DNA of 64,000 nucleotides from the NCBI GenBank assembly GCA_018985235.1, contig JADGIG010000007.1, positions 1 through 64,000 of the forward strand. Direction: 5' to 3'. Both the position numbers and the translations under genes were made by a program. Source of the DNA: Sanchytrium tribonematis (taxonomy: Eukaryota). The first letter of the stretch is position 1. The number at the start of each line of letters is the position of its first letter. The notes under the pieces were generated by a model. The model saw nothing but the letters and a program-made list of their open reading frames with translations, ran no database searches and was not told the DNA's origin. Shown here one piece after another: positions 10,080 to 64,000 of the stretch.

Positions 10080-10885
10080 TCATTGTAAATTTTGCATTTT
10101 TTCAAGGTCTAATTGTAAATCACTTTTTTTCTGCCGCAGCTGTGTTAATAATTGAAAATCCAAACCACGCTCTTTCATTAATTTTGTTTGCCTATTGTTG
10201 ATCGTGACATTTGAAAGTTCATCATATGAAAATTCTCTACGATATAAAGCAAAAAATAAATAGCCAAAGATTGCTGTACCAAAGCCCAGAAAATAAGCTA
10301 TGGGTTCCATAACATCTAAATTAATAAAAATTTACCCCAAGACAAATCCCAAAAAGTCAGCCTTGCCATAACAAAAAATTGCGCGGTCAATCCTATAAGT
10401 CCGGCCCATACGTATCTATTTGCAGATTTACTGGCTTCCTTGATAATCAAGTCATATTTTTGTTCCAATGGGACCAGCTCCTTCTCTACAGCTGCAATTT
10501 GATTAACTATAGGTAAAGTAAGATCATCCATGCTTGGAAGCGTACAAAAAACCATCGAGGGTCCAACCGGAGTAGTTCCATCCGTTTCTTTTCCGATATA
10601 AAAGCCGCCTTCTTTCATACATTCTTTTAAAACAAATTCCAAGGAAGTTAAAGATGAAAGTATAGTCTTTGTATCAGCCAAATAAATTTGAGGTTTGCTA
10701 TTAGAGTCCATGATGCCGTCTAATTTCAATTTTTCAAAAATAGTAAGGATTGGGTACGTCTTTTTAATTGGATACTGGTATGTTTGATTTGCATTCTTAA
10801 AATTGAAAGTAAATATATTGTCGTTCACAGGTTTTAATTCCAAATTTGAAAACTGTCGTCTGGTTACCCTTAAGAATTGATTCAT
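10080..10885 (-). CDS. MCU: Mitochondrial calcium uniporter; exons 10885-10336 and 10315-10080
   Basis: Splicing restores ARLTFWDLSWDVMEPIAYF (DIME-type pore motif). Confidence 0.92.
10316..10335 (-). other. 20-nt spliceosomal intron (MCU), phase 1
   Basis: gtaaatttttattaatttag; joins SW-D-VMEP. Confidence 0.93.
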
Positions 10886-10918
10886 TTTTAATAATGTTTC
10901 AAAAAATTCAAAATTTAT

Positions 10919-12082
10919 TCAACAATGCATTCCATTTTTCTCGCAAAGCCACGGTGCGATTAATATTGCTGAAAAACCAGCACAAGTGATGCCAAAAGTG
11001 TCAGCTAGTGATACAGCTCCCATTAGAAATTCTTTAACATTTTTAGTTCCAGAACTAGCAGAATTCTGTGAAATATCATCCTCATCAGCCAATACCTCAT
11101 ATTCAAGTACTGGATCAAACTTGAGCAAGCAGGCAAATGCGTTGGCATATGTGGAACCACCCAGGAGACCTTCATATAAAACAAATAGACACACAGGTAT
11201 AAAACCAAAAACTTTGTCTAATGACTGACCAATGAAAAGAAAAACGTTAATAAATTGTAGCCCTGCTAATATAAAAAGATATTTGTGATGTGGAATAGTA
11301 TAAAAAGCTACACTTGATCGGCTTAAGAAGACGCCAACTTGATATAGCATCTGAAAAACAACGTAATAATCACGATTACTTTTAAAAAATGAGTCTTCTG
11401 ATACATCAAAAACAATTGTTGGTAGTATTCCTTGATTTATAACATATTCGGAGTAATAAACTAAAAACAAAGGTAGCATAAAAGGAATCACCGCTTTGGA
11501 AACTATTCTTAATTTATCAGATATTGTCTCCATTTTCATTCCTGTCAGATTTACCGACGAACTTTCGACACTTCCTAAAGATCCTCTTCTTAATCCAAAA
11601 TGGTAAGCGAAGTATAGCAATAATGGAAATGGAGAGATGAGCAACATCGTTTGTGCTTTAGTTAATCTAAAGACCGTAGTTAGTAAAAAATACAAAAAAC
11701 TACCACCAAGTCCCGCCATCCCAGTACCACTAAACCACCCTGTAATGTCCTTTGGAAATTGAGAGCTAAGTGCCAGAAAAGACGCTTCACCAAGTCCTGA
11801 GGAAAAGCTTGCTAAAACAACACCACTCAAACTTGCATCAACATTTGAAAATGTATTGAGCAAAAGAGCTGAAATACTTAAAACAACACATATTCTAAAC
11901 CGCATGTCATAACTCATTTCAATGTAAGGCGATATTGATTTTGAAAATAGTCCCGGTACTATGTCTGCAACTAATACCAGACCTTCTAACCCATGGAATA
12001 TATCTGAGGCAGCACTTAAAAAAATGACGTATATAATATTGTTGATTATCCCACAAATGAAAAACGCTAGAGTGGGCTTCAT
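10919..12082 (-). CDS. BTN1: Battenin CLN3/Btn1
   Basis: FFICGIINN..YVIFLSAA, GWFSGTGMAG, EYVINQG, YQVGVFLSRSS, YEGLLGG. Confidence 0.95.
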   Translation of the reverse strand: MKPTLAFFICGIINNIIYVIFLSAASDIFHGLEGLVLVADIVPGLFSKSISPYIEMSYDMRFRICVVLSISALLLNTFSNVDASLSGVVLASFSSGLGEASFLALSSQFPKDITGWFSGTGMAGLGGSFLYFLLTTVFRLTKAQTMLLISPFPLLLYFAYHFGLRRGSLGSVESSSVNLTGMKMETISDKLRIVSKAVIPFMLPLFLVYYSEYVINQGILPTIVFDVSEDSFFKSNRDYYVVFQMLYQVGVFLSRSSVAFYTIPHHKYLFILAGLQFINVFLFIGQSLDKVFGFIPVCLFVLYEGLLGGSTYANAFACLLKFDPVLEYEVLADEDDISQNSASSGTKNVKEFLMGAVSLADTFGITCAGFSAILIAPWLCEKNGMHC

Positions 12083-12915: not shown

Positions 12916-12963
12916 CTTCTGAAGTAAATGATTTATTTTCTTTTTAATAATCTCCTAATTGCC

Positions 12964-15900
12964 ATGAAACACATACTGCTCAACGATCAATTGCAAATCG
13001 TTGATGAAGGCACCGGTATCATAGATGGCGAGCTGGTCACTTGTCCAACACAAAAGCAATTTCCCGGGTTTAAGCAAAAAGCAAAATACAATCCACAATC
13101 ACTACCTTACTTTATTAATGGGCCATTTCCAATTGAAGTTACCTTTCCCCATTTTAAGAACAATTACCACACTTTAGATGATATTTATGTATTATATGGA
13201 CAGTTCGAAAGTCATCGATTTTACAACAAGGAGCTATATTTGCCAGCAGCGGATAAGCCTTCGACCGGAGAAGACAAGCTATTTCACGGATACACTATAC
13301 AATCGTTTTTATCATTTATACACACTCTGAGCGAATTGCCATTTACATTGGTATTGCTCCCCGAAGTTAAAATCGAAAACGAAAAAGAAGACGAAGTCAA
13401 TCACGAATTTCCGTTAGAGCAGGGACTGGTCTCATCTTCTAATGTCATTTTTGTAACATGGCCTGACACAGTGGAGTCCATGAATGCGTTTTTAATGGGG
13501 CTTTGTTGGCATGTTGCAGGAATCACATTTGGATATTTTATTCGATGTCCTTTGGCTAGGAACCCTTACGTAAAACTTGACGCAAAAAATGACGAGAAGC
13601 ATGTTGAAGCAACTGTTCCCTTAATAGAATATCAACTGAATCATTTGTGGGTCATCGTTGGGTTACGAGGTTATCTTTATATAAAACTATTGAAACAGAT
13701 ATTTGGACCATCATTTGTTCAGTATTATACTTTTAAATCAATAGAAATGATTTTAGAAATTGAAGAAGCTGGCAATATTCCATCTGTTGCCGAATTTTAT
13801 GTTAAACGTGTTAATGGCAGCCATGTAGTGAATAATTTGGATTGTACAACCGCCCACCGATATTTTGTCTCAAAATGTACTTTGATAATGTATGGCCTTT
13901 CGAAAAGGGTTGGTGATCAAGCCATGGACCAATTTACATCAAATTTATTGAAAAAATGCTCCAAGTTTGACAAGAAACAAAACAATCCAGACGACCTTGC
14001 TTCTAGTGAAAGGTCCATATATGATGCTTTTGAGGAAAGCAAAACAAATAATTTTACTAGTTTTCTGCACACTCTCAATTCTAACGAGTTTATCAAAAAA
14101 CTTCAAAAGCTGACTACCTACAATTTTCAAGATTATTTAAAGCAATATATTTTTTACCCTGGGTTACCAATTTTGGAAATATCGTATCAATATAATAAGC
14201 GGAAAGGTGCTATTGAAATTGATATTAGTCAATCCAAAACTATCCCAGGGGGCCCAATTTTCACGGGACCTTTGGCAATCAAAATACAAGAACCAGATGG
14301 CAGTTATGAACATGTTTTGGATGTCCAGAAGCAAGTTCAGCAATTTGAAGTACGTTACAATACAAGATACAAGCGTGTGAAGCGATTTAGAAATGTCGAT
14401 ACAGAAGATGTAATGTTTCACCGAGACATCAATAGCATTGTAGTTTCGGAATATGCCAAGCCCGAGGATGAGGCCATGGAATATTTGCGTGTGGATTGTG
14501 ACAATCTTTGGATTGGCAGGATTGTTTTACAACAATCTGAATACATGATCGCTCAAATGGTTTTGAAAGAAGTTGATGTCCGAACACAGATTCAAGGAAT
14601 TAAGGTCTTAAAAGCAAGTAAAGAACCTCCAGCAGCGACCGTTTTATTTCGAATTTTATGCAATCACCGATTTCATCCTTTGGTTAGGAGCGAAGCCGCA
14701 TTTGCCCTTAAAGAACATCACCTGTTAGGTATGTATTATTTGTTACAATATATAAAAAGATTTTGGTGTGAAAATGATAATGTGGATCCGTTTAATAGTC
14801 CGCACACTATTCTAAATTATTCTCTATTTATTCATGGGAATGAATTAGGGGTCAAACTGGAATTAGAAGTCAAAAAACCACAACTTTACAAATATCTATT
14901 TTTTACTCCATTGGTTTTAAAACTGAATGACTTTTGTAATTTTGGTCAATATACGGTTGCAGTGAGTGCTATACAAGCCTTATCGATGATAAGGATTGAT
15001 AGGAAACAAATCACAATTCCTGCTATTCGAGAAAATTCATTAGGAATGTCTTCTGCTATTGCTCAGAGGCTGAACGCAGTTCAAAACCAAAATTTTAATA
15101 GAGCCGAAACCACGCAACAAGCTGGCATCAATTCCCTGCAATCGAATCTCGCAAGTCCTCTTCAATCCCCTCCAAATTTGTTGAGTTATCAGCATCAACA
15201 GTTACAAGCTTATCATCAACAGATGAGTCTACAGACTATGAGCGTTTTAGAATTGCCTTCTATGCTTGAAGGTGTCGCGCCACCTTTAATTAGAAAATTA
15301 AGCATAGATATGCTCAAATTATCAGATAATAGAAGCAACCAATTTCACGACGATGATTACCTTGCCTCCTTAGTGAACGCTATATACAATGCGTTTATTC
15401 CGAAGCTACAGCCAGATGCTGCTGATGATTCTGAAAATATCGATAATGAAGAGATAATTGGCGATCACATTCACCATGCAAATTTTTTGGAGATTGTTGA
15501 TATTGTTGGTAAAGCCTACAGAGGGAAACATGATCTTGCAAGTATACACCCTCCACATATTGACTATCATTTATTTAAACGAGCTATATTTCAAGTAGAC
15601 TCAGTAAGAGTTCGATTTGAAGGAAAATTACGTTATTCGAAAACTGTTTCTGCGTGTATCAAATTTCTTAGCCACTCCATGCTTTTAGATTTGCTAGATG
15701 TAGATTTGTCAAGGATATTACCTCACACATTATCAACAAATCATATCCTAGTCAGACTCCAATCCTTTGAATCCCTGATGTTATTGAACGCATTTGAGTA
15801 CAAGTCTTTTTTAAACTATTTTTTGATGACGCTTTGTAGCGACAAAGATTTGGAATTAAAAGAATCTTTAGCTCAAATGCTAATATCTTTTTCAAGAATT

Positions 15901-18210
15901 CTCGTATTTCAGAATGGAAAAGAAGAATATAGCCACGGCATTTATAAAATTTTAAAGACAGATGTTAGTAAGCAGTTGCCATTATTTGTTTATCTTGATG
16001 ATTATTTTAACAAATATGAATTTATGCATCTGATACAACAAGTTTTAACTTGTAATATATCAAACACAATGAAGAAGAATATTAATGAAGTGAAACAGCT
16101 TGTCTGTGAACCACGAAATATAATAACCTCCGACTTAGACTTACAAAAGGATGTTGTGCCTGCTCCTCAAATTAAGAAATTAAAGATAAAGTTATCATCA
16201 AATATTGTCAATAAGGTCGAAAAAGAGCATGAAAGTGTTAGAAAAGCTCACATTTATATAACTGAATTGCGAACGCATCCTAAATCTGGCTTTTTACTGG
16301 CTCCTGCTGATGAAGTTAATTTCTTTTCTGTTGAAAGTGAACTTAAGGGGAAATCTGAAGTGGATATAGTCGACTTTGTATCCAAAATTCGTGGATTGTT
16401 TTTTAAATATTTGGACCACTATAAAGGCAGTGATACATATTCCGACATTTTTATAATATACAAAGATTTTGAATTAAGAGTCTTGGTGATCAATAGAATT
16501 GGTTTAAAAATGGACCCCTTCAACGTTGAAATGTTAAAAACCATACTTATAGCCTGTTACGAAAACCATCTGCCATTGGACTTTAAGGCATTATTCAGGC
16601 AGGTCGATGACGAAAGTTTAAAGATTGGACCTTTGAAAGACCTTATATTCGAACTTCCACCTGCCGATTTAGAGAAAATTCAACCTGTTATAGACCAGTA
16701 CAATTTATCGGACATTCAAAATGAACTTATATCCTTAGCTGAATTAAATGAAGATGAATCTGACAAACCAATGGTGAATCAAGTCCTGTTAGACATATGG
16801 AATTCCCTCAATGATCATGATAGAAGCTTGTGTTTTAGGGAACCTATAGATCCAGTTGCTCTTGGAATTCCAGATTATTTTAATGTCATAAAACAACCAA
16901 TGGATTTGCAAACAATTTATACGAGGCTAAACAACAACGAATACGGCGAGGTCACAAAATTTCGAGATGACGTAATTTTAATGTTGCAAAATTGTTACAC
17001 TTTTAATTCTCCAGGAATTCAAGTTTATCAAGATGCCAATACATTAGAATCTTTTTTTCGTCAAAAATGGTTGAGTTACTATCCACAAATTCCCGTGCCC
17101 CGATTAGCTAGTGAAAAAGTAGTCCACAAACCAATTCCTAAAGACTCTCTAGTCACGTCCGCTATGCAGCAAACCCTATGCTCTGATTTTAATGTTAGAC
17201 AAGTCCTAAATAATCTTAAAAAGAGAAAGGAAGCCGCATTGTTTTTGAAACCGGTAGATCCTGTTGCACTTAATATCCCAACTTATCCTGAAATTGTCAA
17301 AAATCCGATGGATTTCCAGACTATAAATGATAAAATTGGAAACGATGAGTATGAGTACTTGAGCGAATTTGTTGAGGATGTGGAATTGGTATTTTCCAAT
17401 TGCTGGCTATTCAATCCTCCTGGAAGTTATATACATGGAGCTGCAATTGAGTTGAAAAAACAATTGAAAATTGAATTAAGTAGGTCAAACCTCTCTTCAA
17501 AGCCCAAAAAGGTTCAATCGGTCCCAAAGCCCGCTATAGACATTTCAGTGGTTGACGATATGAATGACCTTGAGATTGGAATCTTAGAAATTCAAGTTAT
17601 TGAGAGTGCAATACGAAAGGAAATGGCGAAGAAAGCTGCGATTCCATTTCTTGAGCCTGTAGATGTTGTCCGTCTAAACATACCCCAATACAAGACAATC
17701 ATTAAAACGCCAATGGACTTTTCAACCCTTCTTAAGAAATTGAATGGTGGTTATTATCAAATACTGAGCCAATTTTTTGAAAACTTATTCCTGATTTTTG
17801 AAAATTGTTATACCTTTAATACCACAAATCATCCTGTGTCAGTTCTTGCAAAACAGATTGAGCAGGGATGCGTGAAAGCTCGAGTATCTATTGTTCAAAA
17901 TATTATTAAAAGACATGAAAAATTGAAAGCTACAACTTATGAAGAATCAGGAAAATCTGATATTTACAAGTCAATTTCTAAACTATCCTATCCTTTGAGC
18001 GAAATGGAACAAATTTACGAGACAGTTTCCGATGATCACGAGAATCTGTTTGAAATTCGGTGCAAGATTTTCGAATATGCAAAAGATAAGCAACATCGAT
18101 TCAATATTATTAAAGCATTTGACAATGTTGCAAAGGAGTTAAGTGGTATCGATTCTAAGAAAAGAAAGAAAGCAGACAGTGATCCAAAAAGAAAGAAATC
18201 AAAGTATTAA
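12964..18210 (+). CDS. TAF2: TFIID subunit TAF2 fused to C-terminal bromodomains
   Basis: FTGPLAIKIQEPDG.YEH, RYNTRYKRVKR, DV..Q..I..L; three bromodomains (PVDP..L.IP.Y..I.K.PMD, NC..FN); start may be 12928. Confidence 0.85.
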   Translation: MKHILLNDQLQIVDEGTGIIDGELVTCPTQKQFPGFKQKAKYNPQSLPYFINGPFPIEVTFPHFKNNYHTLDDIYVLYGQFESHRFYNKELYLPAADKPSTGEDKLFHGYTIQSFLSFIHTLSELPFTLVLLPEVKIENEKEDEVNHEFPLEQGLVSSSNVIFVTWPDTVESMNAFLMGLCWHVAGITFGYFIRCPLARNPYVKLDAKNDEKHVEATVPLIEYQLNHLWVIVGLRGYLYIKLLKQIFGPSFVQYYTFKSIEMILEIEEAGNIPSVAEFYVKRVNGSHVVNNLDCTTAHRYFVSKCTLIMYGLSKRVGDQAMDQFTSNLLKKCSKFDKKQNNPDDLASSERSIYDAFEESKTNNFTSFLHTLNSNEFIKKLQKLTTYNFQDYLKQYIFYPGLPILEISYQYNKRKGAIEIDISQSKTIPGGPIFTGPLAIKIQEPDGSYEHVLDVQKQVQQFEVRYNTRYKRVKRFRNVDTEDVMFHRDINSIVVSEYAKPEDEAMEYLRVDCDNLWIGRIVLQQSEYMIAQMVLKEVDVRTQIQGIKVLKASKEPPAATVLFRILCNHRFHPLVRSEAAFALKEHHLLGMYYLLQYIKRFWCENDNVDPFNSPHTILNYSLFIHGNELGVKLELEVKKPQLYKYLFFTPLVLKLNDFCNFGQYTVAVSAIQALSMIRIDRKQITIPAIRENSLGMSSAIAQRLNAVQNQNFNRAETTQQAGINSLQSNLASPLQSPPNLLSYQHQQLQAYHQQMSLQTMSVLELPSMLEGVAPPLIRKLSIDMLKLSDNRSNQFHDDDYLASLVNAIYNAFIPKLQPDAADDSENIDNEEIIGDHIHHANFLEIVDIVGKAYRGKHDLASIHPPHIDYHLFKRAIFQVDSVRVRFEGKLRYSKTVSACIKFLSHSMLLDLLDVDLSRILPHTLSTNHILVRLQSFESLMLLNAFEYKSFLNYFLMTLCSDKDLELKESLAQMLISFSRILVFQNGKEEYSHGIYKILKTDVSKQLPLFVYLDDYFNKYEFMHLIQQVLTCNISNTMKKNINEVKQLVCEPRNIITSDLDLQKDVVPAPQIKKLKIKLSSNIVNKVEKEHESVRKAHIYITELRTHPKSGFLLAPADEVNFFSVESELKGKSEVDIVDFVSKIRGLFFKYLDHYKGSDTYSDIFIIYKDFELRVLVINRIGLKMDPFNVEMLKTILIACYENHLPLDFKALFRQVDDESLKIGPLKDLIFELPPADLEKIQPVIDQYNLSDIQNELISLAELNEDESDKPMVNQVLLDIWNSLNDHDRSLCFREPIDPVALGIPDYFNVIKQPMDLQTIYTRLNNNEYGEVTKFRDDVILMLQNCYTFNSPGIQVYQDANTLESFFRQKWLSYYPQIPVPRLASEKVVHKPIPKDSLVTSAMQQTLCSDFNVRQVLNNLKKRKEAALFLKPVDPVALNIPTYPEIVKNPMDFQTINDKIGNDEYEYLSEFVEDVELVFSNCWLFNPPGSYIHGAAIELKKQLKIELSRSNLSSKPKKVQSVPKPAIDISVVDDMNDLEIGILEIQVIESAIRKEMAKKAAIPFLEPVDVVRLNIPQYKTIIKTPMDFSTLLKKLNGGYYQILSQFFENLFLIFENCYTFNTTNHPVSVLAKQIEQGCVKARVSIVQNIIKRHEKLKATTYEESGKSDIYKSISKLSYPLSEMEQIYETVSDDHENLFEIRCKIFEYAKDKQHRFNIIKAFDNVAKELSGIDSKKRKKADSDPKRKKSKY

Positions 18211-18808: not shown

Positions 18809-21800
18809 ATGCAAAGTGCCACAATAGTTCAAAAATTGGATTATGGGTATTTGGTCAAAATTGAGGACGAAAACGAGTTGTTTCTAGATTCAAAACAGAC
18901 ATACTCTCTAAATGCTTCCATTAATGTATACAAGTTGGGCGAAAAATGTGTCGACCATTGTGTTGTTGAGAAGCAATTGTGTGAAGGATTTGTAGTTGCT
19001 AAAAATAAAAAAGGCTGCTATGTCGTTGATAATAAAGAGCTGATTATAGTAGGCCCGGGAGACGTCGAAAAGTATGCTGGTGTAATGGTTTCAAAATTTG
19101 GAGACTACTTTGTTGGTAGGTTAATTGTCAACAAAGGCAAAATATTATCTGATACTAAGTCAGAATCGGTCAAAATGGAAATCCAAAGTATTAATTTAAA
19201 TAGTCTCGAATTATTTGAACCTCAGGTAGACCCTAAAAATGCTGTTATAGTTGAAAAATATGTGAATTTTTGCAAAGAATTTAGTCTCAGTGTTTTATCT
19301 TCCGAAAAAATTCAATTTTTTGCTTCTAAATCTATAGACAGAAATATAAAGTGCTTTTCTCATAATATGAAATATGGCCTACTTTTAGATAATACTCAAT
19401 TTCACAAATTTAACGAAGTTTGTAGAGGAATTCCATGTACATTTCAAGTTTCCGAAATATGTTTTCAAAAGAAGAAAAAGGCTGGGCACTGGTGCAAAAT
19501 TGGTGAATTTAAAGCCTTTTTGCCAATACACCATTCAGTTGATAATATCAAGATTGATGATACATATGAAGGGAAAATATGGGATATTCAACAAGATATC
19601 ATTGTTGTTTCTTTGAAAAATATATCGTCTATAAAATTTTCCACGTTATCTGACGTAAAACAATATGCACTATCCAAAGACTCTATTGACGTCGTTGTCA
19701 GGGCAGCCGAAACTGGACGAGTACAAGTTGATTATTTTGGTATTAGGAGTTGGATCGACGGTAAACACAAATTGGGTAATACTATAAGTTGCGTTGCAAC
19801 AGGCACATTAGATAATGTCCACTTTAGAAATATTTGGTCGGAAGTACCAGTTATTCCTATGACAAGGGGATTTCAGTGTGAAGGCCGACTCTTTGAAGAC
19901 AATGTATGGACTAAAGATGTAATTTATAAGGAATCTAGAATTGGACTTTATGGGCCTCCATTGATCGTAAAACCTTTGATATTCGAACAGAGACCTTTAG
20001 AAATTGGATACATTTTCCCCTTTTGGATCCAAAAAATTGACAACAACTCTTTACATTTACTTTCTTGGCACGATTCTCGATTAGTCAAGGGAATAGCTTT
20101 TAAACGAAACATCTCAGAATATTTTATTTCAAATTTAAATATGTTTAAATGCGGGCAAACGGTTCTTGCATGTATTGAAGAGCTGAATGAACACGGATAT
20201 GTGGTTAGTCTAAAATGGCACAAAATTGTTGAGTCGGTCGGAAAATTGGGATTTGAAAGCAAAGTGGTTGAGTTAATTAATGGCATTCCTGATTATGTGC
20301 TTTCTAAATTGGTTATGCTTCCAAGAAACCTAGTCGGAACTGAAGTTAATTGCCAACTGATAAAAACTGTTGCAAGTGGGCTTCATGTCCAATTCATGCT
20401 AGAAGATTCGCGTAAAGAGGGCTTCATAGCAACAAGTAGAATTCCAACTGAAGGTAATTTTGAATGCGTAATTATCAATCACGATACGCCTTTATTTGAT
20501 TTAATATTAAAAGAAGAGTATTCATCAAAGCGTAAGTCTTCAAAACATGCTACCGTACTCTCTATAAAGAGTGACTATGCTATTTGCATCGACGAGCAAG
20601 GGCAAATTGGTTACACTCCAACTCGAAACTTTAATTATGCTTTACAACATGGTCTATCCCCTGGTAAAGTCATTCAGATAGAGTCACAAATTCACTCTGG
20701 CGTAAATATATACAAAATTTCGATTGTCAATCACAAGCGAGCAAAAGCTGATGAGTTTAAGCTGATAAATCCAATTGATAACATTACCAATTTAAAAGCG
20801 AATCAGCTTATAAAAGTGAAGGTGACTCAAGTTAAACAGTTACAGGTTCATGTTAAAATCGCTGATAATTTATTTGGCAGAATCTTGGGCAACTTTGCTG
20901 TTTCCGAACCCACTTTGCAGCTTAAGAATATTTACAAGAAAGATGACACGATTTTAGTTAAAATCATCACTACTAGAGATAACAAATCTGGCCGCTATTT
21001 GCCGTTAAGCCATGTAAATTCTTTCAGAGGTTCAATGCTAGAATGTTCAATTCCAGGTGCACCTGAATTTGATTTTGATTCGCCTCAGTTAGAAATTAAT
21101 CGTCAATATTTGGTCAGTGTTGCTGAAATAATGGAAGATAAATTTATGGTTCAGATAATTCCGGGGAAGAAGGCTCTAGTTTATGACATTGGCTATTCAG
21201 GTGATATTAATAAGCTCCAAATTGGACAAATTTTACAGTTAACTCTCAGTTATATGAGAAATGATAAGCTCTATATGAGCGACGTCAAAAACAGAGCTAA
21301 AATAATGGCTGACAAGACATTGGAGTACCAAGTGCTCTTAAGTTATGGTGAAACAGGTTTTCTTCACAAATGTCATTCTCATTCATTAGAAATTGGCTCT
21401 ATCGTTGATGTAACATCAAAAACTATGCATAAATCAAGGCTTTTTATTAATACTAAATCTGAACCTATCGAAGTTGGTTTGACTTGTCATGGCATTGTCA
21501 AAAATATTCAAAATAATGGAGTTTTTGTTCAAATTTGTCACGATAAAGTAGGAAGAGTTAAAATTAAAGATTTAAGCGATGACTATGTTAAAGATTGGAA
21601 GTCTCTGGTCTCTCTTTATCAATCTGTACAAGTGAAAGTCGTGAAAATGGAAGCAGAAAATATCGATTTGTCAATGAAATCTTCTGACATTTACAATGTC
21701 AACTTGGATAATTATTTTGATATGATAAACATAGAAGCAATTTTTAAAGCCAAGGTTTTAAACATTACTAACAATCATATTTTTTATAATATACAACTCG

Positions 21801-22861
21801 GTCAGCCAAAAGCAGTTATTATAAAAGCTATTGGTGATAAATCTGATACCTTAAGTAAAGGTGACACATGCAGAGTAAAAGTCACAAAAAAGAGTGGTGT
21901 CAAAATTCAAGTAGACCTTTGCACAGATTTGAATATACAAGAGACCGTAGAAATAAGCGAATCTGAATCTGAAATGGAAATTGATTTACCTACTTTAGAC
22001 CAAAATGTAAAGGTATCTAAGAATTTGCCAGAATTGCAACATGAATTCACATCAAGGCCTTTTGTTGAAAATCCAGAGTTTGAGAAAAGATTGATTGAAA
22101 ACCCTAATGATTCCATGATTTGGTTGGAATATATGGCTTTTGTTTTAAAAACATCCAGTATGGAGAACGCACGTCTATTAGCAAAGCGAGCCTTAAAATC
22201 AATTAATTTTAGGGAGGAATCAGAGACTTATAATATACATGTTGCCATTCTAAATATGGAATTGGAATTTGGTTCCAAAGCTTCTTTTGAAGAGGCTCTG
22301 AAATCCAGTTTGCTCGTAAATAGTCATAAACTGATTTTACTTCATTGTATGTCAGTGTGTTTAAAAATGCAAAAGTACGAATTTATTGAAAATTTAATTT
22401 CAATGATTTTAAAAGAGTATAAGCAAAGTTGCAAGGTTTGGATTAAAATCATCGAATATTATTTTGTTGTTGATCTTAAACGAGCAAGACTAGAATTACA
22501 GCGATCTTTGAAGAGTTTGCCGAAACACAAGCACATCAAAATTATTCAAAAGTTTGCACAAATGGAATTTCAGAACGGCGATCCTGAAAGAGCCAGAACT
22601 ATTCTAGAGGGAATTTTAAATGAATATCCCAAAAGATTGGATCTATGGAGTATCTATGTCGATATGGAAATTAAGGGGAAACACTACGAGCAAGCTAGGC
22701 AAGTGTTTGACAAAATGCTGAGAATACAATTTAAGCCAAAGCAAATGAAATTCATTTTTTCCAAAAACCTGAAGTTTGAGCAAGATCATGGATCTAAAAC
22801 TTCAATTGCAAAAGTACAGCAGAAAGCAGCTGATTATGTTAAAGAAGTAAATATGAAATAA
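18809..22861 (+). CDS. RRP5: rRNA biogenesis protein Rrp5 (S1 repeats + HAT/TPR)
   Basis: FEKRLIENPNDSMIWLEYMAF, INFREE.E, GDPERARTI.EG...PKRLDLW. Confidence 0.92.
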   Translation: MQSATIVQKLDYGYLVKIEDENELFLDSKQTYSLNASINVYKLGEKCVDHCVVEKQLCEGFVVAKNKKGCYVVDNKELIIVGPGDVEKYAGVMVSKFGDYFVGRLIVNKGKILSDTKSESVKMEIQSINLNSLELFEPQVDPKNAVIVEKYVNFCKEFSLSVLSSEKIQFFASKSIDRNIKCFSHNMKYGLLLDNTQFHKFNEVCRGIPCTFQVSEICFQKKKKAGHWCKIGEFKAFLPIHHSVDNIKIDDTYEGKIWDIQQDIIVVSLKNISSIKFSTLSDVKQYALSKDSIDVVVRAAETGRVQVDYFGIRSWIDGKHKLGNTISCVATGTLDNVHFRNIWSEVPVIPMTRGFQCEGRLFEDNVWTKDVIYKESRIGLYGPPLIVKPLIFEQRPLEIGYIFPFWIQKIDNNSLHLLSWHDSRLVKGIAFKRNISEYFISNLNMFKCGQTVLACIEELNEHGYVVSLKWHKIVESVGKLGFESKVVELINGIPDYVLSKLVMLPRNLVGTEVNCQLIKTVASGLHVQFMLEDSRKEGFIATSRIPTEGNFECVIINHDTPLFDLILKEEYSSKRKSSKHATVLSIKSDYAICIDEQGQIGYTPTRNFNYALQHGLSPGKVIQIESQIHSGVNIYKISIVNHKRAKADEFKLINPIDNITNLKANQLIKVKVTQVKQLQVHVKIADNLFGRILGNFAVSEPTLQLKNIYKKDDTILVKIITTRDNKSGRYLPLSHVNSFRGSMLECSIPGAPEFDFDSPQLEINRQYLVSVAEIMEDKFMVQIIPGKKALVYDIGYSGDINKLQIGQILQLTLSYMRNDKLYMSDVKNRAKIMADKTLEYQVLLSYGETGFLHKCHSHSLEIGSIVDVTSKTMHKSRLFINTKSEPIEVGLTCHGIVKNIQNNGVFVQICHDKVGRVKIKDLSDDYVKDWKSLVSLYQSVQVKVVKMEAENIDLSMKSSDIYNVNLDNYFDMINIEAIFKAKVLNITNNHIFYNIQLGQPKAVIIKAIGDKSDTLSKGDTCRVKVTKKSGVKIQVDLCTDLNIQETVEISESESEMEIDLPTLDQNVKVSKNLPELQHEFTSRPFVENPEFEKRLIENPNDSMIWLEYMAFVLKTSSMENARLLAKRALKSINFREESETYNIHVAILNMELEFGSKASFEEALKSSLLVNSHKLILLHCMSVCLKMQKYEFIENLISMILKEYKQSCKVWIKIIEYYFVVDLKRARLELQRSLKSLPKHKHIKIIQKFAQMEFQNGDPERARTILEGILNEYPKRLDLWSIYVDMEIKGKHYEQARQVFDKMLRIQFKPKQMKFIFSKNLKFEQDHGSKTSIAKVQQKAADYVKEVNMK

Positions 22862-22952: not shown

Positions 22953-24027
22953 TTATTGTTTCAAACATTCAATAAAATTTGAAAAGAATCTAGTAAAGCC
23001 AGTATCTCTATGCTCATTCAAGCCTCGAAATCTGCGTCTCACAAAAGTATTGATGAGAAGCTGGGAGTCGAACCCATCATTTTGAAACACAGAATACAAC
23101 ATTTCGGCCTCTGCATCTACCAATTCCCTATTTGTGGTAACCTGAAATATATGGACCAAATCGGTTTTTGTTATTTTATCAGAATTTTTACTCTACATGA
23201 ATAAAAAATACTTTTGAAAAAAGTTTAATAGCATAATTAAATTCATCAATATTACTTAGTGCTTCATTAAAAGACAAGAACTCGTCTAATTTCATTTTAA
23301 AATTTGATTCAGGTAGTTTCTGAATTCTTTCACCTAACTCAATTTGTTTGGTTGGATGTGCATAATTAGTTATAATGTAAGCAAAATCTTTTAAATTTAT
23401 AGTCCCATTTTTGCTGTACAAGTCAAATTCTATTTTTAGTAAATCTGATTTAATAGATTTAACAAAGTTTTCAAAATCTCTAAATTTAACAACGTCCGTG
23501 TCACCAAAAAGACTCTTTATCACATCAGTTGGATGAACAGCTTGTTTGGATCCAATTCTCTGAGAAAATCCTGCGCTTTGTCTTGAAAATGTCAAAAGCA
23601 TTTCTTGTAATTCTTCGTCATCTACACCACCAGAATTATTTTTGTCAAACAAATTGAACGCACTTTTTAGACTTCTCAGAGGTATTGTCAATAAAGAAAG
23701 GTAGAATACATATTCGTCAAAACTTATCTTTCCATCTTTGTTTAAGTCTGCCAATAAAAGTGAAGAAGTTTTAGGTATATTAATTTTCGTATTTCTTGTT
23801 ACATGATCCTTACTGTTGTATGGAATTAAAGATCTAACAAAGTCTTCCATAGTCATATATTCGTTATTGAGACTGGCAAAATATTGAAATACTTTTAAAG
23901 GATGGCTGTAGGCTCTAACTCTATTTTCGTAATTTCCGAGTATTTGCTCCCGGTATCCATCGCACTGGACGACAAGTCCACCTAAAGCCAATGCTCCAAA
24001 TCCTTTTCGTAAAATTGGTCGAAACAT
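22953..24027 (-). CDS. MICU1: Mitochondrial calcium uptake protein (EF-hand); exons 24027-23212 and 23192-22953
   Basis: YENRVRAYSHP.KVFQYFAS, MT.EDFVRS, EF hands; spliced C-terminus RGL....DTGFTR. Confidence 0.9.
23193..23211 (-). other. 19-nt intron (MICU1), phase 0
   Basis: gtattttttattcatgtag; joins the two ORFs in frame. Confidence 0.88.
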
Positions 24028-28649: not shown

Positions 28650-28935
<286 letters not shown>

Positions 28936-48904: not shown

Positions 48905-49844
48905 ATGGCAACTTCGCAAACAATCGAAGTAATTGAAGTCGCATTTTCCGGAGGCCAAGGCAGAGATGGAGTCGAGTTTGGACCAGAGACACTTATTAAT
49001 CATGGTTTGTTAAATCAACTAAAAGGTCTTGGTTACAACGTTCAACACAATAAGTCTTTTAAAAATATTCCTAAACCCGAAAACGATCCAATTGTTGCTG
49101 GCTGTAAAAATTCAAAGTATGTATCCGCTGCAAACAAGAGTCTTTTCTCTGCTGTTAAACAAGCTTGTGAAGTTCATAAAACTACACTTGTAATCGGCGG
49201 AGACCATTCACTTGCTATAGGCTCAATTGCAGGCTCCGCAGCAGTTTATCCTGATATCTGTGTTATTTGGGTTGATGCACATGCTGATATTAATACTCCA
49301 GATACCAGTGGTAGTGGGAATCTACATGGGTGTCCATTGTCCTTCTTATTAAAGCTGCCATCTACGGAAAAAGTACCAGAATTGAGTTGGGTCCCAAAAT
49401 GTTTATCTCCAGACCGACTGGTGTATATTGGACTCAGAGATGTAGATGAAGGCGAAAGAAAAATTTTAAAAGAGCACAAAATCAAGGCTTTTAGCATGCA
49501 TGATGTTGACAAATATGGCATAGGAAGAGTTGTTGAAATGGCATTGGACCACGTCAATCCGAAAAGGGATCTTCCTATTCATATGTCGTATGATGTGGAT
49601 GCTTTAGACCCTACAGTAGCGCCAGCAACTGGTATATCTAATTTATTTAGGAACACCTGTAAGAGGTGGTTTGACTTTCCGCGAGGGTCACTATATAGCA
49701 GAGGCTATAGCAGAAACCGGGAAATTAGTTGTAATGGACATCATGGAAGTCAATCCAATTTTGGCAATTCAAAAAACCGACGAACCTACCGCGACTGTAG
49801 CTTGTTCTTTAATTCGAGCGGCATTTGGTGAAACGTTGCTTTGA
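48905..49844 (+). CDS. CAR1: Arginase; exons 48905-49631 and 49651-49844
   Basis: GGDHS, DAHADIN, GNLHGCP, SYDVDALDP; spliced ATGTPVRGGL..REG, EVNP. Confidence 0.97.
49632..49650 (+). other. 19-nt intron (arginase), phase 1
   Basis: gtatatctaatttatttag; restores AT-G-TPVRGG. Confidence 0.96.
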
Positions 49845-54220: not shown

Positions 54221-54818
54221 TTACAAAATAATGCATTTTTTCTGGGCCTTCGCTTTTTGTGGAGGAGCAAGAACAGCACGGATAGCTAAATTAATAACAA
54301 GTACCTTCATCAAAGACGTTTTTTAATCCTTTTTGGGTAAGAGCAGAGCACTCCAAATATTTAACACTTCCTATTTCTTTTGCCATTTGAAGCCCTTGTG
54401 GGTATGTAATTGGAGACATTCTTTTCTCTCTCAACTTTTCAATTGTCTCTCTATCTTCTCTCAAATCCAGCTTAGTTCCTACTAGAATAATAGGGACTCC
54501 AGGTGCATGATGAGATATTTCAGGATACCATTTGGTTCGAACATTTTCAAATGATGGGGGACTGACCAGTGAAAAACATATCAAAAACACATCTGTTTGA
54601 GGATAAGACAATGGCCGTAGACGATCATAATCTTCCTGACCAGCAGTATCCCATAATCCCAAATTAATCGGTTTTCCGTCAACCATCACATTAGCTGAGT
54701 AGTTATCAAAAACCGTAGGAATATACTCTCCTGGAAACGCATTTGTAGTATATGAAATTAATAAGCAGGTCTTTCCAACAGCTCCATCTCCAACAACAAC
54801 ACATTTTATAGCTTGCAT
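54221..54818 (-). CDS. RAC1: Rac GTPase, full length 192 aa; exons 54818-54305 and 54285-54221
   Basis: [46 protein letters not shown]; spliced tail KKCIIL. Confidence 0.98.
54286..54304 (-). other. 19-nt intron (Rac), phase 1
   Basis: gtacttgttattaatttag; restores FDE-A-IRAVL and the CAAX box. Confidence 0.96.
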
Positions 54819-54960: not shown

Positions 54961-55972
54961 ATGTTTCGCCCTGATGAGATTCTTAATCAATTTTTATCCA
55001 ATACAGGTCAGATAACTAGCGACTGGGTCCTTCCAAGCTTTGGAGCTATTCCTAAAAAGACTCTACATACTCCTGATGATATAAATAAATGGAGCAAGAG
55101 TAAAGGCCTTGGCTTATTATTGACAACCTTATTACAATTTACTGATTCTGTTGAAGGTGTGACTGAAATACCTGCTAAATTATCGGAAGAAACTAAAATT
55201 ATTCTTGACTTCTTCCACAAGATTAATTTGATGACTTTAAAATTGGGAAATCAAGTAGAATCAAGCGACGACATCAGATTTGGGAATCCAAAGGTGATGG
55301 ATCTTTACAAATGGATTTATGACAACACTCCGGTACATTTAAACAGTTTATCTACTGTTAAAACAGCATTAAAAGAGGAACTATTTTATTATTTCAATAA
55401 TTCATTTGGTTCATCTCGATTAGACTTTGGAAGTGGTCATGAACTTTCTTTTTTGGCATTTATGACTATTATTTATAAATCAAACGAAAACGCAGACTTT
55501 TCACGCGAGCTTGTTCTTGTGATTTACTCGCAATACATCACTCTGATCCGCGGCATCATTAAAATATTTCATTTAGAGCCTGCAGGTACTACTATCTTAA
55601 TTAGGGAGTCATGGAGTGTGGGGAGTTGATGATTATTACTTATTACCATACTTATTAGGTGCCTCACAATTATGCAACTCAAGGCTAAAGCCATCGGATA
55701 TCCACAATCCCGAAATTTTATCACATTTTCAAACTAAAGATACAAAATTATATTTATATTTCGATGCTATAAGATATATAAAGAGTAACAAAACTGGACC
55801 ATTTTTCGAGCATTCGCCCATGCTCAATGATATTTCAAATTCAAAAAATTGGGTCAAGGTAAGACAGGGAATGTTGCGCTGGTATATCATGGAATGCTGC
55901 ACTAAATTTGTAGTTGTACAACACTTCTTCATGGGTCAAATTTTTACTCTCGAAGAATATGTGCGAAAGTAA
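54961..55972 (+). CDS. PTPA: PP2A activator PTPA (Rrd1/2); exons 54961-55585 and 55605-55972
   Basis: RFGNP, RLDFGSGHEL, spliced LEPAGSHGVWGVDDY, K.GPFFEHSP.L, KF.VVQHF. Confidence 0.95.
55586..55604 (+). other. 19-nt intron (PTPA), phase 1
   Basis: gtactactatcttaattag; restores EPA-G-SHGVW. Confidence 0.96.
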
Positions 55973-57398: not shown

Positions 57399-59313
57399 AT
57401 GTTAAATTATTTGTCTGCGGCTTTTAACGCATTTGGTATAGGCAATTTTAAAAGCCAAGTAGTTGGCACTCTCTATGAAAAAATCAACAAGCTATCTGTA
57501 AAATTCAAAGATTGCGAGTTAGAAGTTCAACAGCATTCAAATAATCTTTATCAGTTGGTTATCAGCAAAATTTATGATCAAGATGAAGAGTTTTCAGATT
57601 TTGATGAGTATGTTATCCTTCTTCGCTCTGAAATAGAATTAAAAGAGACTTCGGGAGGCTTCACTTGGATTGATGATGGGATTGAAATGGTTTTTATGAC
57701 AAAAGACTCCAGTATCCTTCAAAAGCTTCAAAATCACATAAATATTTATGAGGATGATAAAATGAAAAGCAAGTCAATTTATATTGAAAGTGCTCAAAAT
57801 ACGGCTCCTTTAAATATATCTGGAGACGTCATGCTCTCTTGCGGTATTAATTTATTTACCTTTAACGTGAAAGATTCACTATTTGAGCCAATATCAGAAA
57901 AAGAATTCAAATTAGAAGTCGTAAAAAGTCAAACAGGATCTTTTATGAAAATCAGTGGCGAACATGACATCTGCACCAAAATTGAACATTCTATGAATCC
58001 CTACTTCAGTCAAGAAAAGTGGTGCTTTTTGTGGAACCATTTTGATAAAGTCTTGGTGAGTATGGCGGCTGTCTTCTCACCTAAGGATTACTCAACGTTT
58101 AGATCCATACTACAGAGAGTCTTAATTGAACAACAAAATCTGTTAATCACTCCAGATGAGATCCAGTACGCTCAGTCTGCTCTAATTGCTGAAGATATGG
58201 CATATGAAGAAGGAGTTACTGCAGATGATAGCTCTAGCTCTGAGACTGAGTCCGAGCCTGATTTGATCGGAGAGGCCAATGTTGCAAAAGATAGAAATAA
58301 CAAGCTTACAACTTCTCTCAGAAATTATAAAGCATTTGTTAGCAGGGGTGATAAAATTGACTCGTACGACACAAATTCTAAAGTTCAGAAATTAAGGACA
58401 AATTCTTCCAATTTTACTCCTGACAACATACATCTGCATGAAAATGAACGGAAGCTTCTAATGTTTGACAAAAATCGCGTCTCTTCTATGGATTTGGAGA
58501 CCGGAAAAGTGGTTGAGGAATGGGATGCTCCTAAAAATTTGAGAGGAATTAGTTCTTTGACCAAATCGTCTCAATTAACCAATGAACAACAATTTTATGG
58601 AATAACCAATAATGATGTGTTACTAATGGACCCTCGATCAAGAAATTTGGCTTCACAGACCACATCTTACAAGTCAAACCCAAATTTCACTGCAATTAAG
58701 ACAGGCGGCAAGGATGATCAGATTGCAGTGGCAAATGAGCAAGGAGAACTCAAATTATACAACAAGTTAGGAATTCGTGCTAAGACAAATCTAAAGCTAG
58801 CTGGAGGTATTTATTTTTAATGAAGAACCAATATTAAGTTTAGATATATCAGAGAATGGGGCTTGGATAGTAGCGACTTGCAAGACTTTTCTAATGTTGA
58901 TAGAGGCTGATCACGAATCCACAAGTGGTTTTTCAAAATCAATTCCAGTTAAACACAGGAAACCACCTATTAGACTTACCATTCGACCTGATCATGCAAT
59001 GCAGCTAGGCCTTCAGAAAGTCAATTTTACTCCGGCCAGATTTGATACAATTAATGGCAAGGAAGAGAAATACATCGTAAGTAGCACAGGAAATTATCTT
59101 ATAGCATGGTCGCTAAAGAAAGCGAAGTTAGGTAGGAATGATTATCAAATCAAAAAATATTCAGAAACAATAGTCGGAGAACAATTTCACAAACCAGGAC
59201 AAGTTGTCGTGGCCTTATCGAATCAATTGGTACTAGCCAACAAACGAAATTTTATGACCCCAAAAAAGATTTTTGCGGATCGTGACAGCGTCACTAAATC
59301 TTATAATAAATAA
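57399..59313 (+). CDS. VID27: Vid27 family protein; exons 57399-58806 and 58826-59313
   Basis: FVSRGDKI, MDLETGKVVEEW, DPR, RAKT.L; spliced GEPI..LD.S.NG.WIVATC, FTPARF. Confidence 0.92.
58807..58825 (+). other. 19-nt intron (VID27), phase 1, AAG acceptor
   Basis: gtatttatttttaatgaag; restores G-E-PIL. Confidence 0.9.
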
Positions 59314-60003: not shown

Positions 60004-60018
60004 GGAGGTTTTCAAAAT

Positions 60019-61881: not shown

Positions 61882-61925
61882 AAATTTAAAGGTCACGTCG
61901 CTAAAAAGTTACAGTTTATTTTGAT

Positions 61926-64000
61926 TCAATTGGCCGACCCTGGAGTTCTAAGCTCTATCACACAGTCATCGGATATAGTTTCAGGAAGTAAAGGAATATC
62001 TTTAGACTCAAAAATTTTGTCAAAATTTTCAATCAAGAATGTCACAAAGTCATTTGGCTGATTGTCGAAAAAATTGTTAGGATCGTCCTTGAGCTTTATA
62101 AGTGTTGGCCCAAAAACAATGCCGATATTCCTAGGATTCATTTTATTATATTCTTCAAAAGAAGCTACCCTAAATTAGATCAATTTACCTTTGCAGATGT
62201 TGAATAAGGTAGTATAATGTATAGTAATGAGATGGTAGTAATTTTTTAATGGAATTTTTAAAAAAGATTAACGAATCATCGGAAGGTTTAGGTTCCTTGA
62301 GAATATATACTGTTGTTTCATATATGTCTGTAGAAATAAGTGGGATTTTCAAATCTCGGAAATAAGCTTTTAAAAGAGACGATACTGAAAGAACGTCGAT
62401 GAGATCATGCGCCATGTCAATGGTGTTACCTTGTTCCCACTCATCTTGCATATTCTTCATTTCCTTCATCGCACCAGCCCTTCGATAAATTCCCTCAGTT
62501 TTTAAACCTTTTTCATCAACAACTCTCAAACAAGCAGTTACAATATTAGGAATTGGTTTGCCCTCGAAGTCCGCTCTTTCTTGCAAAAATCCACCGAAGA
62601 GGACAACTTTTTGTTTCTTTAACTTAGCAATAGCCAAGCCTTTCAATTGTTTTGCACGCAAAGATCCCTCCATGAGTCTTAAAGTTTTAGCTCTGTTAAT
62701 ATCTTGTGGTTGATCGTCTTCATCTTGTTTTTGCTTTTTGATAAGATTATTTGCTTTGTCTCTCCAAAACTCTTTCTTGCCTTTATCTTCAGCTAAATTA
62801 CTGTTTGAAACATTCTCGAGACTTTCCCTAGAGCCTTTGGCGTCTATATCATGTTCTCTTGGTGATTCAGGACTTGTTGGTTGCTGAAATTTTTCAGATT
62901 TTTTAGCTGTACTTACTACTTCATTTTGTCTGAACTTACAGACTTCGTATTCCTTTACTTTTTCACGAATTTCTGTCAGAATTGTGGCTTTGTCGGCAAT
63001 CAAGGATTTAATTTCGCTAGTTAAAGTATTTTTTTGCTCTTCCAATGGTGCCAGTAACGATAACAATTTCGCTATTTCGGAGTCGGATGCGATAACTCCA
63101 TTTTCAGCTCTCTTTCTCAACATTTCTTGTAAGACTTTACACTGCTTCTCAGACTGATTTCTCAAATTTTCCTCATATTTAGAGTCAGATTTTTGTTTTT
63201 CAAGTTCTGAAAGCTTGACATGCAATTCACCAATGAGTAGCTCATATTTGAGCTTCAAATTATTGTAATCGGAGGACTTGTCTTCTTTTTCTTTAGCTAT
63301 AATTTCATGTTGTTTTTTTATTCCACTGATATTTATTTCCAACGACCTTAATTTCTCCAAGTCAAACCTATGCTCTTCTCTTTCTTTATCCAAATCTTTT
63401 ACTACTTTAATAAATTCGTTGTCCAAAGTTGATAATTGCATTTGAAGCCTAGAGACTTTTTCTAATTGGATTTGTAAGGATATTTCTAAATCTTTCTTTG
63501 ATTGAGTTAATTGCTTGAGTTCTTTGCCAATTTCTGAATTAAAAGAACTCAGTTGCTGTTTCGTTTTGGTTTCTGACTCGGCAGTGTTTTTAAATCCCGA
63601 TAATTGTAGTTCATAAGAATGAATTATTTGTCTTGATTCATCAAGTTGTTTTTCAACTTGAATTTTAGACTGTCTTACCAACATTAATTCATCTTTTAGC
63701 TCTTGCAACTGGTCTTCCAAGTAGGATTTAGTTTGCTGAAGTTCTGAAAATTCCTCAATTGTGCAAGAATTTTTTTTCAATTCATCAAGATGATACAATG
63801 CTTCTCTGTATCGAACTTTCTCTAATTCCATGCTATGTTTATAATGATCGAAATCCTCTAAAGCCTTACGACTCAAGTCTTTCAATTTTTTCAGCTGTTC
63901 TTGGAGCTCTATATTCAAGGCTTGTGATTTTTGAAGTTCTTTTTTAGCATGTTCGTGCTCCTCATTGCGAGATTGCTTCGGAACCTCTGTTGTTTTAAGA
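61926..64000 (-). CDS. Coiled-coil RhoGAP, 5' end outside the window; last exons >64000-62189 and 62169-61926
   Basis: IP.IV..C, GL.TEGIYR, SLLKAYFRDL; spliced HLQRV....NKMNPRNIGIVFGPTL. Confidence 0.92.
62170..62188 (-). other. 19-nt intron (RhoGAP), phase 2
   Basis: gtaaattgatctaatttag; restores HLQ-R-VASF. Confidence 0.95.

What the first reader, a model, noticed from the sequence alone, without database searches (positions are those of the whole stretch)
10316..62188. Every detected intron is single and 3'-terminal (last coding exon 65-488 nt)
Seen: no gene has more than one detected intron. Coding lengths after the intron are 236, 240, 470, 68, 474, 173, 79, 100, 436, 110, 413, 188, 194, 65, 368, 488 and 244 nt. 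All are under 500 nt, even in CDSs of 1.9-2.9 kb (ABCA, MIOS, VID27, RhoGAP), and 16 of 17 lie beyond 62% of the CDS. The 5.2-kb TAF2 and 4-kb RRP5 ORFs have no frame break. A hand calculation under uniform placement gives roughly 1e-5 or less, with a post hoc threshold. Known: intron-poor genomes such as budding yeast and microsporidia are 5'-biased, the pattern expected from reverse-transcription-mediated loss, so this is the reverse. Inference: splicing may depend on terminal-exon definition, with the 3'-end/poly(A) machinery licensing one nearby micro-intron, or intron loss spares the 3' end. This is my best candidate for an undescribed system here.
Basis: partly seen in the sequence, partly recalled or inferred. 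Interest (0 to 1): 0.93.

Follow-up and report, generated by a model that had tools for sequence, protein, structure and literature searches.

The report
Tiny fungal introns crowd gene ends
In this compact genome, likely of a sanchytrid fungus, all 17 predicted introns are only 19-20 bases long, one per gene and within 500 coding bases of the stop codon, the reverse of yeasts, likely because intron loss removed the others and spared gene ends.

Summary
Observation confirmed. 17 of 53 genes carry one GT-AG intron (15 of 19 nt, 2 of 20 nt), all with T at -8 and A at -6, and the 17 terminal lengths match. Among 16 independent introns the 3' bias is real (threshold-free P about 1e-4; none in 34.9 kb lying more than 488 nt from a stop, 22.8 expected). 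No in-frame or ATG-adjacent intron was found. Singleness alone is weak (P 0.02-0.07).

The organism groups with the sanchytrid Amoeboradix gromovi. Relatives' truncated ORFs share the SAHH, ABCA and VID27 introns, and two distant fragments end at the VID27 site, so at least some introns are likely ancestral. The 500-nt limit is not absolute: A. gromovi ABCA lacks this intron and breaks about 840 nt from the stop.

Most likely these are survivors of 5'/central-biased loss. Licensing by the poly(A) machinery is not excluded but has no direct support, and no RNA data were available. The pattern is published for the ciliate Fabrea salina; my searches found no fungal report, and no note on it in this scan.

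The parts
10316..10335 (-). 20-nt intron, MCU gene (10080-10885), phase 1, 236 nt after
   Evidence: Pfam MCU profile 62-117 then 119-174; model
23193..23211 (-). 19-nt intron, EF-hand (MICU-like, label recalled) gene 22953-24027, phase 0, 240 nt after
   Evidence: motif and frame; no Pfam hit on exon 2
26671..26689 (+). 19-nt intron, ABCA gene 24198-27159, phase 1, 470 nt after
   Evidence: homologues run through DEPTTG-LDP; same break in P0148/P0229; absent in A. gromovi P0231
28849..28867 (+). 19-nt intron, internally deleted Rac copy 28656-28935, 68 nt after; identical to 54286-54304
30519..30537 (+). 19-nt intron, SAHH gene (start likely 29688, end 31011), phase 0, 474 nt after
   Evidence: homologues run TTT-GCRD; same break in P0002, P0121, P0122
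31219..31237 (-). 19-nt intron, VAP/MSP gene 31046-31757, phase 1, 173 nt after
   Evidence: motif and frame; no Pfam hit on exon 2
31882..31900 (-). 19-nt intron, SPT2 gene 31803-32604, phase 2, 79 nt after
   Evidence: Pfam SPT2 stops at profile 81 of 109 at the junction; no hit on exon 2
35490..35508 (-). 19-nt intron, Ykt6 gene 35390-35939, phase 2, 100 nt after
   Evidence: exon 2 matches Synaptobrevin 33-58
38662..38680 (+). 19-nt intron, zinc-finger gene 38495-39116, phase 2, 436 nt after; only intron in the 5' half (28%)
   Evidence: C2H2 pattern completes across the junction; no Pfam hit
39252..39271 (-). 20-nt intron, MIOS gene 39142-41474, phase 1, 110 nt after
   Evidence: exon 2 matches zinc_ribbon_16 96-123
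44325..44343 (-). 19-nt intron, PAK kinase gene 43912-45523, phase 1, 413 nt after
   Evidence: Pkinase 1-139 then 141-263
47341..47359 (+). 19-nt intron (GTT donor), epimerase-like gene 46431-47547, phase 1, 188 nt after
   Evidence: motif and frame; no Pfam hit on exon 2
49632..49650 (+). 19-nt intron, arginase gene 48905-49844, phase 1, 194 nt after
   Evidence: Arginase 3-222 then 224-277
54286..54304 (-). 19-nt intron, Rac gene 54221-54818, phase 1, 65 nt after
   Evidence: removal restores the C-terminus of Rac
55586..55604 (+). 19-nt intron, PTPA gene 54961-55972, phase 1, 368 nt after
   Evidence: PTPA 1-180 then 182-292
58807..58825 (+). 19-nt intron, VID27 gene 57399-59313, phase 1, 488 nt after
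   Evidence: VID27 2-184 then 190-347; same break in P0281, P0317, P0352; P0282 full length
62170..62188 (-). 19-nt intron, RhoGAP gene (61926 to beyond the window end), phase 2, 244 nt after
   Evidence: RhoGAP 1-119 then 121-146
12928..18210 (+). TAF2 ORF, 5,283 nt without a break (negative control)
18809..22861 (+). RRP5 ORF, 4,053 nt without a break (negative control)

Best explanation
The 17 insertions are predicted spliceosomal introns of 19-20 nt with a fixed T-N-A six bases before their end, all within 488 coding bases of the stop, and they are likely the shrunken survivors of an intron-rich fungal ancestor in which cDNA-mediated loss cleared the 5' and central parts of genes but rarely reached the last few hundred bases. 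Shown: size, consensus, position, domain continuity, shared positions in relatives. Inferred: splicing; ancestry of most introns; mRNA ends right behind the stop. Most likely mechanism (inferred, untested): the reverse transcript starts upstream of the mRNA end (poly(A) fold-back or internal priming in AU-rich messages), or too little homology is left behind a terminal intron for the 3' crossover because the 3' UTR is tiny. Splicing itself would be ordinary U2-type and not tied to position.
For: Bias is significant without a threshold. Shared positions: SAHH in 3 of 5 sanchytrid-clade relatives, the other 2 being one full-length sister sequence; ABCA in one ENA relative; VID27 in P0281 and in two fragments only about 30% identical to the window protein; the A. 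gromovi ABCA break at Gly700 matches the start of two unnamed, chytrid-like fragments. Presence differs between close relatives (ABCA, SAHH, VID27), so loss is recent or ongoing. A. gromovi has 11 'transcriptase' and 4 'retrotranspos' matches in its annotation and a fairly full spliceosome (U1-70K, U1A/U2B'', PRP40, BBP, U2AF65/35, SF3B1, PRP8, BRR2). TAAATT lies within 30 nt from the stop in 23 of 53 genes against 5.7 in shuffles, and convergent genes are a median 11 nt apart. Cryptococcus losses usually spare the 3'-terminal intron and self-priming is a published model (PMC2395259, passages). Fabrea's 3' pile-up is ascribed to loss of 5' introns (PMC13685798, passages). Mikrocytos has 224 tiny introns in 179 genes, so tiny size does not force singleness (PMC10245619, passages).
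Against: The standard poly(A)-primed model predicts the opposite bias (PMC8476143, passages), and a crossover argument should spare 5'-terminal introns too, yet only 1 of 16 is in a 5' half. A. gromovi apparently lost the more 3' ABCA intron and kept the upstream one. The window's ABCA position matched none of the non-sanchytrid ABCA fragments (nearby but different sites seen). Four intron-bearing Rac loci from other eukaryotes lack the window's Rac intron. Ancestry was examined for 4 of 16 introns only. Phase 1 excess (2/10/4) is not explained by neutral loss alone. No RNA data.
Confidence: 0.47

Rival explanations
1. Splicing of 19-nt introns depends on the 3'-end machinery (terminal-exon definition through U2 snRNP/U2AF with CPSF and poly(A) polymerase), so only the last intron near the poly(A) site is removed well and upstream introns were purged by selection.
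For: No gene with two introns in the window (0 of 53). In ABCA three sanchytrid lineages each show one break, at two different sites. A hard 488-nt window has the best likelihood of the models tried, but it is fitted post hoc. A. gromovi has U2AF65/35 and CPSF1. Coupling of the last intron to 3'-end formation is known in mammals (PMC3325483, passages). The likely poly(A) signal sits at the stop.
Against: Singleness has P 0.074 given the 3' zone. The A. gromovi ABCA terminal part is about 840 nt. Absolute and relative decay models fit equally (log-likelihood -104.6 and -105.0). Intron-like decoys are not tolerated upstream and purged downstream as predicted: near 11 vs 12.5 expected, far 15 vs 19.6, antisense control 18 vs 27.2, so the test is inconclusive. 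The ABCA ancestor likely carried both introns. Tiny introns occur several per gene elsewhere.
Confidence: 0.25
2. Selection keeps one late intron per gene because its exon junction complex marks nearly the whole coding sequence for nonsense-mediated decay, or aids export and translation.
For: A. gromovi keeps Mago, Y14, eIF4A3/FAL1, CWC22, UPF1 and UPF2. EJC-dependent decay needs a junction more than 50-55 nt behind the premature stop (PMC3325483, passages). The reciprocal ABCA pattern fits 'keep one'.
Against: 36 of 53 genes, including the two longest, have no intron; intron-bearing genes are not significantly longer (median 1,024 vs 729 nt, P 0.11). No UPF3 row was found under two recalled identifiers (genome about 92% complete, so not absence). 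EJC-dependent decay was not tested in this lineage.
Confidence: 0.14
3. The pattern is a small-sample or detection effect: hidden in-frame, UTR or ATG-adjacent introns, or one atypical region.
For: One 64-kb window, no genome and no reads; UTR introns are invisible; 5 of 14 introns tested by Pfam have no hit on exon 2.
Against. Held-out check in A. gromovi: of 18 long conserved genes, 15 have one annotated ORF on their contig and 3 split into one long and one short piece, none into comparable halves.
Confidence: 0.08
4. The introns were gained near 3' ends at proto-splice sites after near-total loss.
For: G at exon -1 in 10 of 16 and AG in 7 of 16; phase 1 excess; ABCA and Rac positions unmatched outside the lineage.
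Against: VID27 and the Gly700 ABCA site are shared with distant sequences; apart from the duplicated Rac pair all introns differ in sequence, unlike a mobile family.
Confidence: 0.06

Closest known systems
Fabrea salina (heterotrich ciliate) introns; PMC13685798 and PMC9004412, passages read
   Same: Streamlined genome, tiny GT-AG introns with a fixed branch A, most genes intronless (68.2% there, 36 of 53 here), extreme 3' enrichment ascribed to loss of 5' introns.
   Different: Ciliate, mostly 15 nt, 5,156 introns and multi-exon genes; here a fungus, 19-20 nt and frame-shifting, never two per gene in 53 genes. Independent origin.
Stentor coeruleus and Blepharisma tiny introns; PMC9505925 and PMC13685798, passages read
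   Same: GUA start, AU-rich body, branch A leaving a 5-nt tail (position 10 of 15), identical in geometry to the A at -6 here.
   Different: 15-16 nt, mostly phase 0 and 5'-biased; here phase 1 excess and 3' bias.
Mikrocytos (16-17 nt) and chlorarachniophyte nucleomorph (18-21 nt) introns; PMC10245619, passages read
   Same: Narrow size range in a reduced parasite or symbiont genome.
   Different: Several introns per gene occur; the Mikrocytos spliceosome is strongly reduced, whereas A. gromovi keeps U1 proteins, U2AF and the EJC core.
Intron-poor fungi: yeasts and microsporidia; PMC8476143 and PMC10245619, passages read
   Same: Massive loss from an intron-rich fungal ancestor (about 7.6 introns per kb reconstructed).
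   Different: Their survivors sit near the start codon, often in ribosomal protein genes; here RPL11 is intronless and survivors are 3'.
Internal intron loss in Cryptococcus; PMC2395259, passages read
   Same: Loss events rarely remove the 3'-terminal intron.
   Different: Intron-rich genome with few losses, still biased toward the 3' part; 5' introns are kept.
Terminal-exon coupling of splicing and polyadenylation in mammals; PMC3325483, passages read
   Same: Would explain a single late intron.
   Different: There it assists one of many introns and is not a requirement; not shown here.

Membership tests
U2-type spliceosomal intron | GT...AG ends | tested here: met
   17 of 17
U2-type spliceosomal intron | Branch-point adenosine near the 3' end | tested here: met
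   A at -6 and T at -8 in 16 of 16 independent introns; use as branch point is inferred
U2-type spliceosomal intron | Removal restores a conserved reading frame | tested here: met
   6 of 14 genes tested show one Pfam profile continuing across the junction, 3 more have an expected domain in exon 2, 5 have no exon-2 hit; SAHH, Rac and ABCA continue in homologues
U2-type spliceosomal intron | Absent from mature RNA | not testable with these tools
   No RNA run was listed
U2-type spliceosomal intron | Spliceosome present in the lineage | tested here: met
   In the relative A. gromovi only: PRP8, SF3B1, BRR2, U1-70K, U2AF, BBP rows; no snRNA in the window
Sanchytriomycota | Monophyly with a named sanchytrid | tested here: met
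   SAHH: window + P0002 + P0003/4 clade 100/99; P0002 shares a 90% cluster with A. gromovi. ABCA best non-self hit is A. gromovi, 69%; six A. gromovi ORFs of five window genes share one contig. One gene tree only.
Fabrea-type 3'-biased tiny introns (works like) | 3' enrichment | tested here: met
   window only
Fabrea-type 3'-biased tiny introns (works like) | Preferential loss of 5' introns on a reconstructed tree | not testable with these tools
   No outgroup gene structures; only fragment ends for ABCA, VID27, SAHH and four Rac loci
Terminal-exon licensed splicing | Fixed maximum distance from intron to gene end | tested here: not met
   488 nt in the window, about 840 nt in A. gromovi ABCA if that break is an intron
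Terminal-exon licensed splicing | Only one intron per gene, beyond chance | tested here: inconclusive
   P 0.020 to 0.074
Terminal-exon licensed splicing | Intron-like words tolerated upstream, purged near the end | tested here: inconclusive
Terminal-exon licensed splicing | Splicing depends on the poly(A) signal | not testable with these tools
   needs an experiment
Introner / mobile intron family | Introns similar to one another beyond the splice signals | tested here: not met
   16 different sequences by inspection

The most novel reading that the evidence does not exclude
Sanchytrid fungi have tied their spliceosome to 3'-end processing: a 19-nt intron is removed only when it is the last one before the poly(A) site, so genes carry at most one, late intron, and sister species keep different ones.
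Probability: 0.22. Interest if true: 0.88.

Novelty: new variant of a known kind. Interest (0 to 1): 0.62.

Why it matters
The 5' bias of surviving introns is the main argument for reverse-transcription-mediated intron loss; a fungus with the opposite polarity, plus sister genomes that keep different introns, makes loss bias, 3'-end coupling and surveillance separable with existing assemblies. It adds a fungal case of 19-20-nt introns with the same branch geometry as ciliate tiny introns. It also has a practical consequence: the published sanchytrid proteins were called with an intron-blind ORF finder (PMC8371127, methods passage), and 7 of 7 read-through ORFs looked up are in the public collection in truncated form, so roughly a third of such gene models may lack their C-terminus.

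Tried and rejected
No whole genome is held. Contaminant eukaryote contigs in 5 MAGs gave no PAK orthologue (best 40% over a long stretch), so that route to outgroup introns was dropped. Rfam: 0 matches. Earlier scan notes: none on this genome, none relevant by words. Decoy test inconclusive. Idea that introns mimic the stop-adjacent motif: TAAATT in 2 of 16 introns vs 1.2 expected, rejected; only AATTTA, the branch region itself, is shared. In-frame candidates at 40873-40890 and 37057-37071 are coding; 7249-7269, 32865-32883 and 4533-4555 lack the -8/-6 rule and were set aside without homology tests. No adjacent ORF pair is joined by a consensus intron. Poly(A) polymerase, UPF3, U1C and CFIm25 were not found in the A. 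gromovi table under recalled identifiers; this is not absence. PMC5659724 is not held. Paper searches; none showed a report of sanchytrid introns or of 3'-biased introns in a fungus; subscription papers are not covered. The supplement of PMC8371127 was searched, not read: file 4 is cut, and two files could not be opened; they may mention introns.
Full report
Observation. The window is a gene-dense eukaryotic stretch, about 35% GC. Gene models give 53 genes covering 59,763 nt; 17 have one frame-break intron each, and the 17 terminal coding lengths equal those reported. Fifteen introns are 19 nt and two are 20 nt. All begin GT (GTA in 15 of 16 independent ones), end AG and have T at -8 and A at -6. 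Of 14 genes with both exons scanned, 6 show one Pfam profile continuing across the junction, 3 have an expected C-terminal domain in exon 2 and 5 have no exon-2 hit. SAHH, Rac and ABCA continue in homologues. The two Rac introns are identical, so 16 are independent.

Chance. With host genes fixed and uniform placement, the mean relative position has P 1.1e-4, KS P 2e-5; the post hoc 488-nt limit has P 2e-6. No intron lies in the 34,886 coding nt farther than 488 nt from a stop, where 22.8 are expected at the density of the 3' zone. Singleness is weaker: P 0.020, or 0.074 given the 3' zone. Absolute and relative decay models cannot be told apart. A matrix scan found no 18- or 21-nt sense candidate at 6.5 bits or more, and only weak words in intergenic DNA. 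Two in-frame candidates are coding. UTR introns remain invisible.

Organism. SAHH forms a supported clade with unnamed ENA proteins, one of which clusters with Amoeboradix gromovi. The ABCA best hit is A. gromovi, whose contig also holds RRP5, BTN1, the EF-hand gene and RPL11. The window is therefore likely sanchytrid. The genome paper called proteins with TransDecoder on contigs and does not discuss introns in its main text (PMC8371127, passages). Seven of 7 read-through ORFs of intron-bearing window genes are in the public collection letter for letter.

Relatives, from protein ends only. Such ORF calls read into introns, so their tails mark intron sites. SAHH breaks at the same codon in P0002, P0121 and P0122, with tails that fit 19-, 19- and 21-nt introns; the sister sequence P0003/P0004 is full length and could be a transcript. 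ABCA breaks at the window's site in P0148/P0229. A. gromovi ABCA instead stops at Gly700, and its second ORF runs unbroken through the window's site: a terminal part of about 840 nt, 71% into the gene, if the break is an intron and there is no second one before residue 776. Two unnamed chytrid-like fragments begin at that same Gly700; other fragments mark different sites near DEPTTG, none identical to the window's. VID27 breaks at the window's site in P0281, is full length in P0282, and two of 150 hits, only about 30% identical to the window protein, end at the same codon. Four intron-bearing Rac loci of other eukaryotes lack the Rac intron. So some positions are likely old, loss is ongoing, and 500 nt is not a law.

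Held-out check. In the A. gromovi annotation table, 15 of 18 long conserved genes have one annotated ORF on their contig; RPC2, EF2 and POL3 split into a long and a short piece (1025+349, 1248+97, 976+123 bits). By recalled protein sizes these genes hold about 100 kb, where uniform placement at the window's density would give about 27 introns. Limits: pieces under 100 residues are invisible, the side of the short piece is not given, and one clathrin row was not seen. CPSF1 splits with the conserved region in the short piece, which fits a 3' break; DBP2 splits long plus short and BBP into two small pieces.

Mechanism. A. gromovi keeps core splicing factors, the EJC core, UPF1, UPF2 and reverse transcriptases, so no rival falls for lack of parts. 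TAAATT follows the stop in 23 of 53 genes against 5.7 expected, and convergent genes are a median 11 nt apart; 3' UTRs are likely very short, so distance to the stop approximates distance to the poly(A) site. That suits both a loss process that cannot reach the message end and a coupling to 3'-end formation. The decoy count that should separate them had no power. I favour loss bias (0.47) because shared positions and presence/absence among relatives show loss at work, sparing of terminal introns is documented in Cryptococcus, and tiny introns occur several per gene elsewhere. Licensing (0.25) and EJC-based selection (0.14) stay open; the reciprocal ABCA case is the best hint for them but is a single gene. 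The missing 5' introns and the phase 1 excess (2/10/4) are not fully explained.

Known cases. Fabrea salina shows extreme 3' enrichment of 15-nt introns through loss of 5' introns (PMC13685798; PMC9004412). Stentor has the same branch geometry (PMC9505925). Intron-poor fungi are 5'-biased (PMC8476143). For these papers I read passages; of PMC13644364 the first third; of PMC10459994 one passage. Nine searches showed no report of sanchytrid introns or of a 3'-biased fungus.

Verdict. Real and significant in this window, partly backed by a sister species, unconfirmed by RNA. A new variant of a known kind: interest 0.62; 0.88 if splicing proves to be licensed by the 3' end (probability about 0.22).

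Noticed in passing
window 28656-28935 (+) and 54221-54818 (-): Two Rac copies differ at one base over most of their shared length, intron included; the first lacks 321 nt in frame and has a different C-terminus. Recent duplicate, gene conversion or an amplification/assembly artefact.
   Followed up: partly
first 30 nt from stop codons, whole window: TAAATT in 23 of 53 genes (5.7 expected) and AATAAA in 14 of 53 (3.7 expected), often overlapping a TAA stop: a likely poly(A) signal fused to the stop codon.
   Followed up: partly
window 32633-32812 (-): A 59-codon ORF ending in a hydrophobic stretch follows gene 32846-34942 in the same frame after one TAA; separate microgene, read-through or error.
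   Followed up: no
whole window: Extreme compaction: 93% coding, five overlapping gene pairs (4-81 nt, some dependent on start choice), divergent gaps median 144 nt.
   Followed up: no
window 12928-18210: TAF2 carries three bromodomain stretches at its C-terminus.
   Followed up: no
the 16 independent introns: Phases 2/10/4 and G at exon -1 in 10 of 16; G is commonest at codon position 1 here, which may link the two.
   Followed up: partly
L083, L084, L086, L088, L089, L092: Unbroken Rac-like ORFs (59-71% identity) on long contigs of bacterial genomes, one a complete Maricaulis chromosome.
   Followed up: no
L095 9900-11200 and L096: Intron-containing eukaryotic Rac genes inside prokaryote MAGs, that is eukaryotic contamination.
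   Followed up: partly
P0151 (Sorochytrium ABCA), residues matching window ABCA 698-702: The annotated protein has a short gap in the Walker A motif next to the A. gromovi break, possibly a mis-called intron at or near the same site.
   Followed up: no
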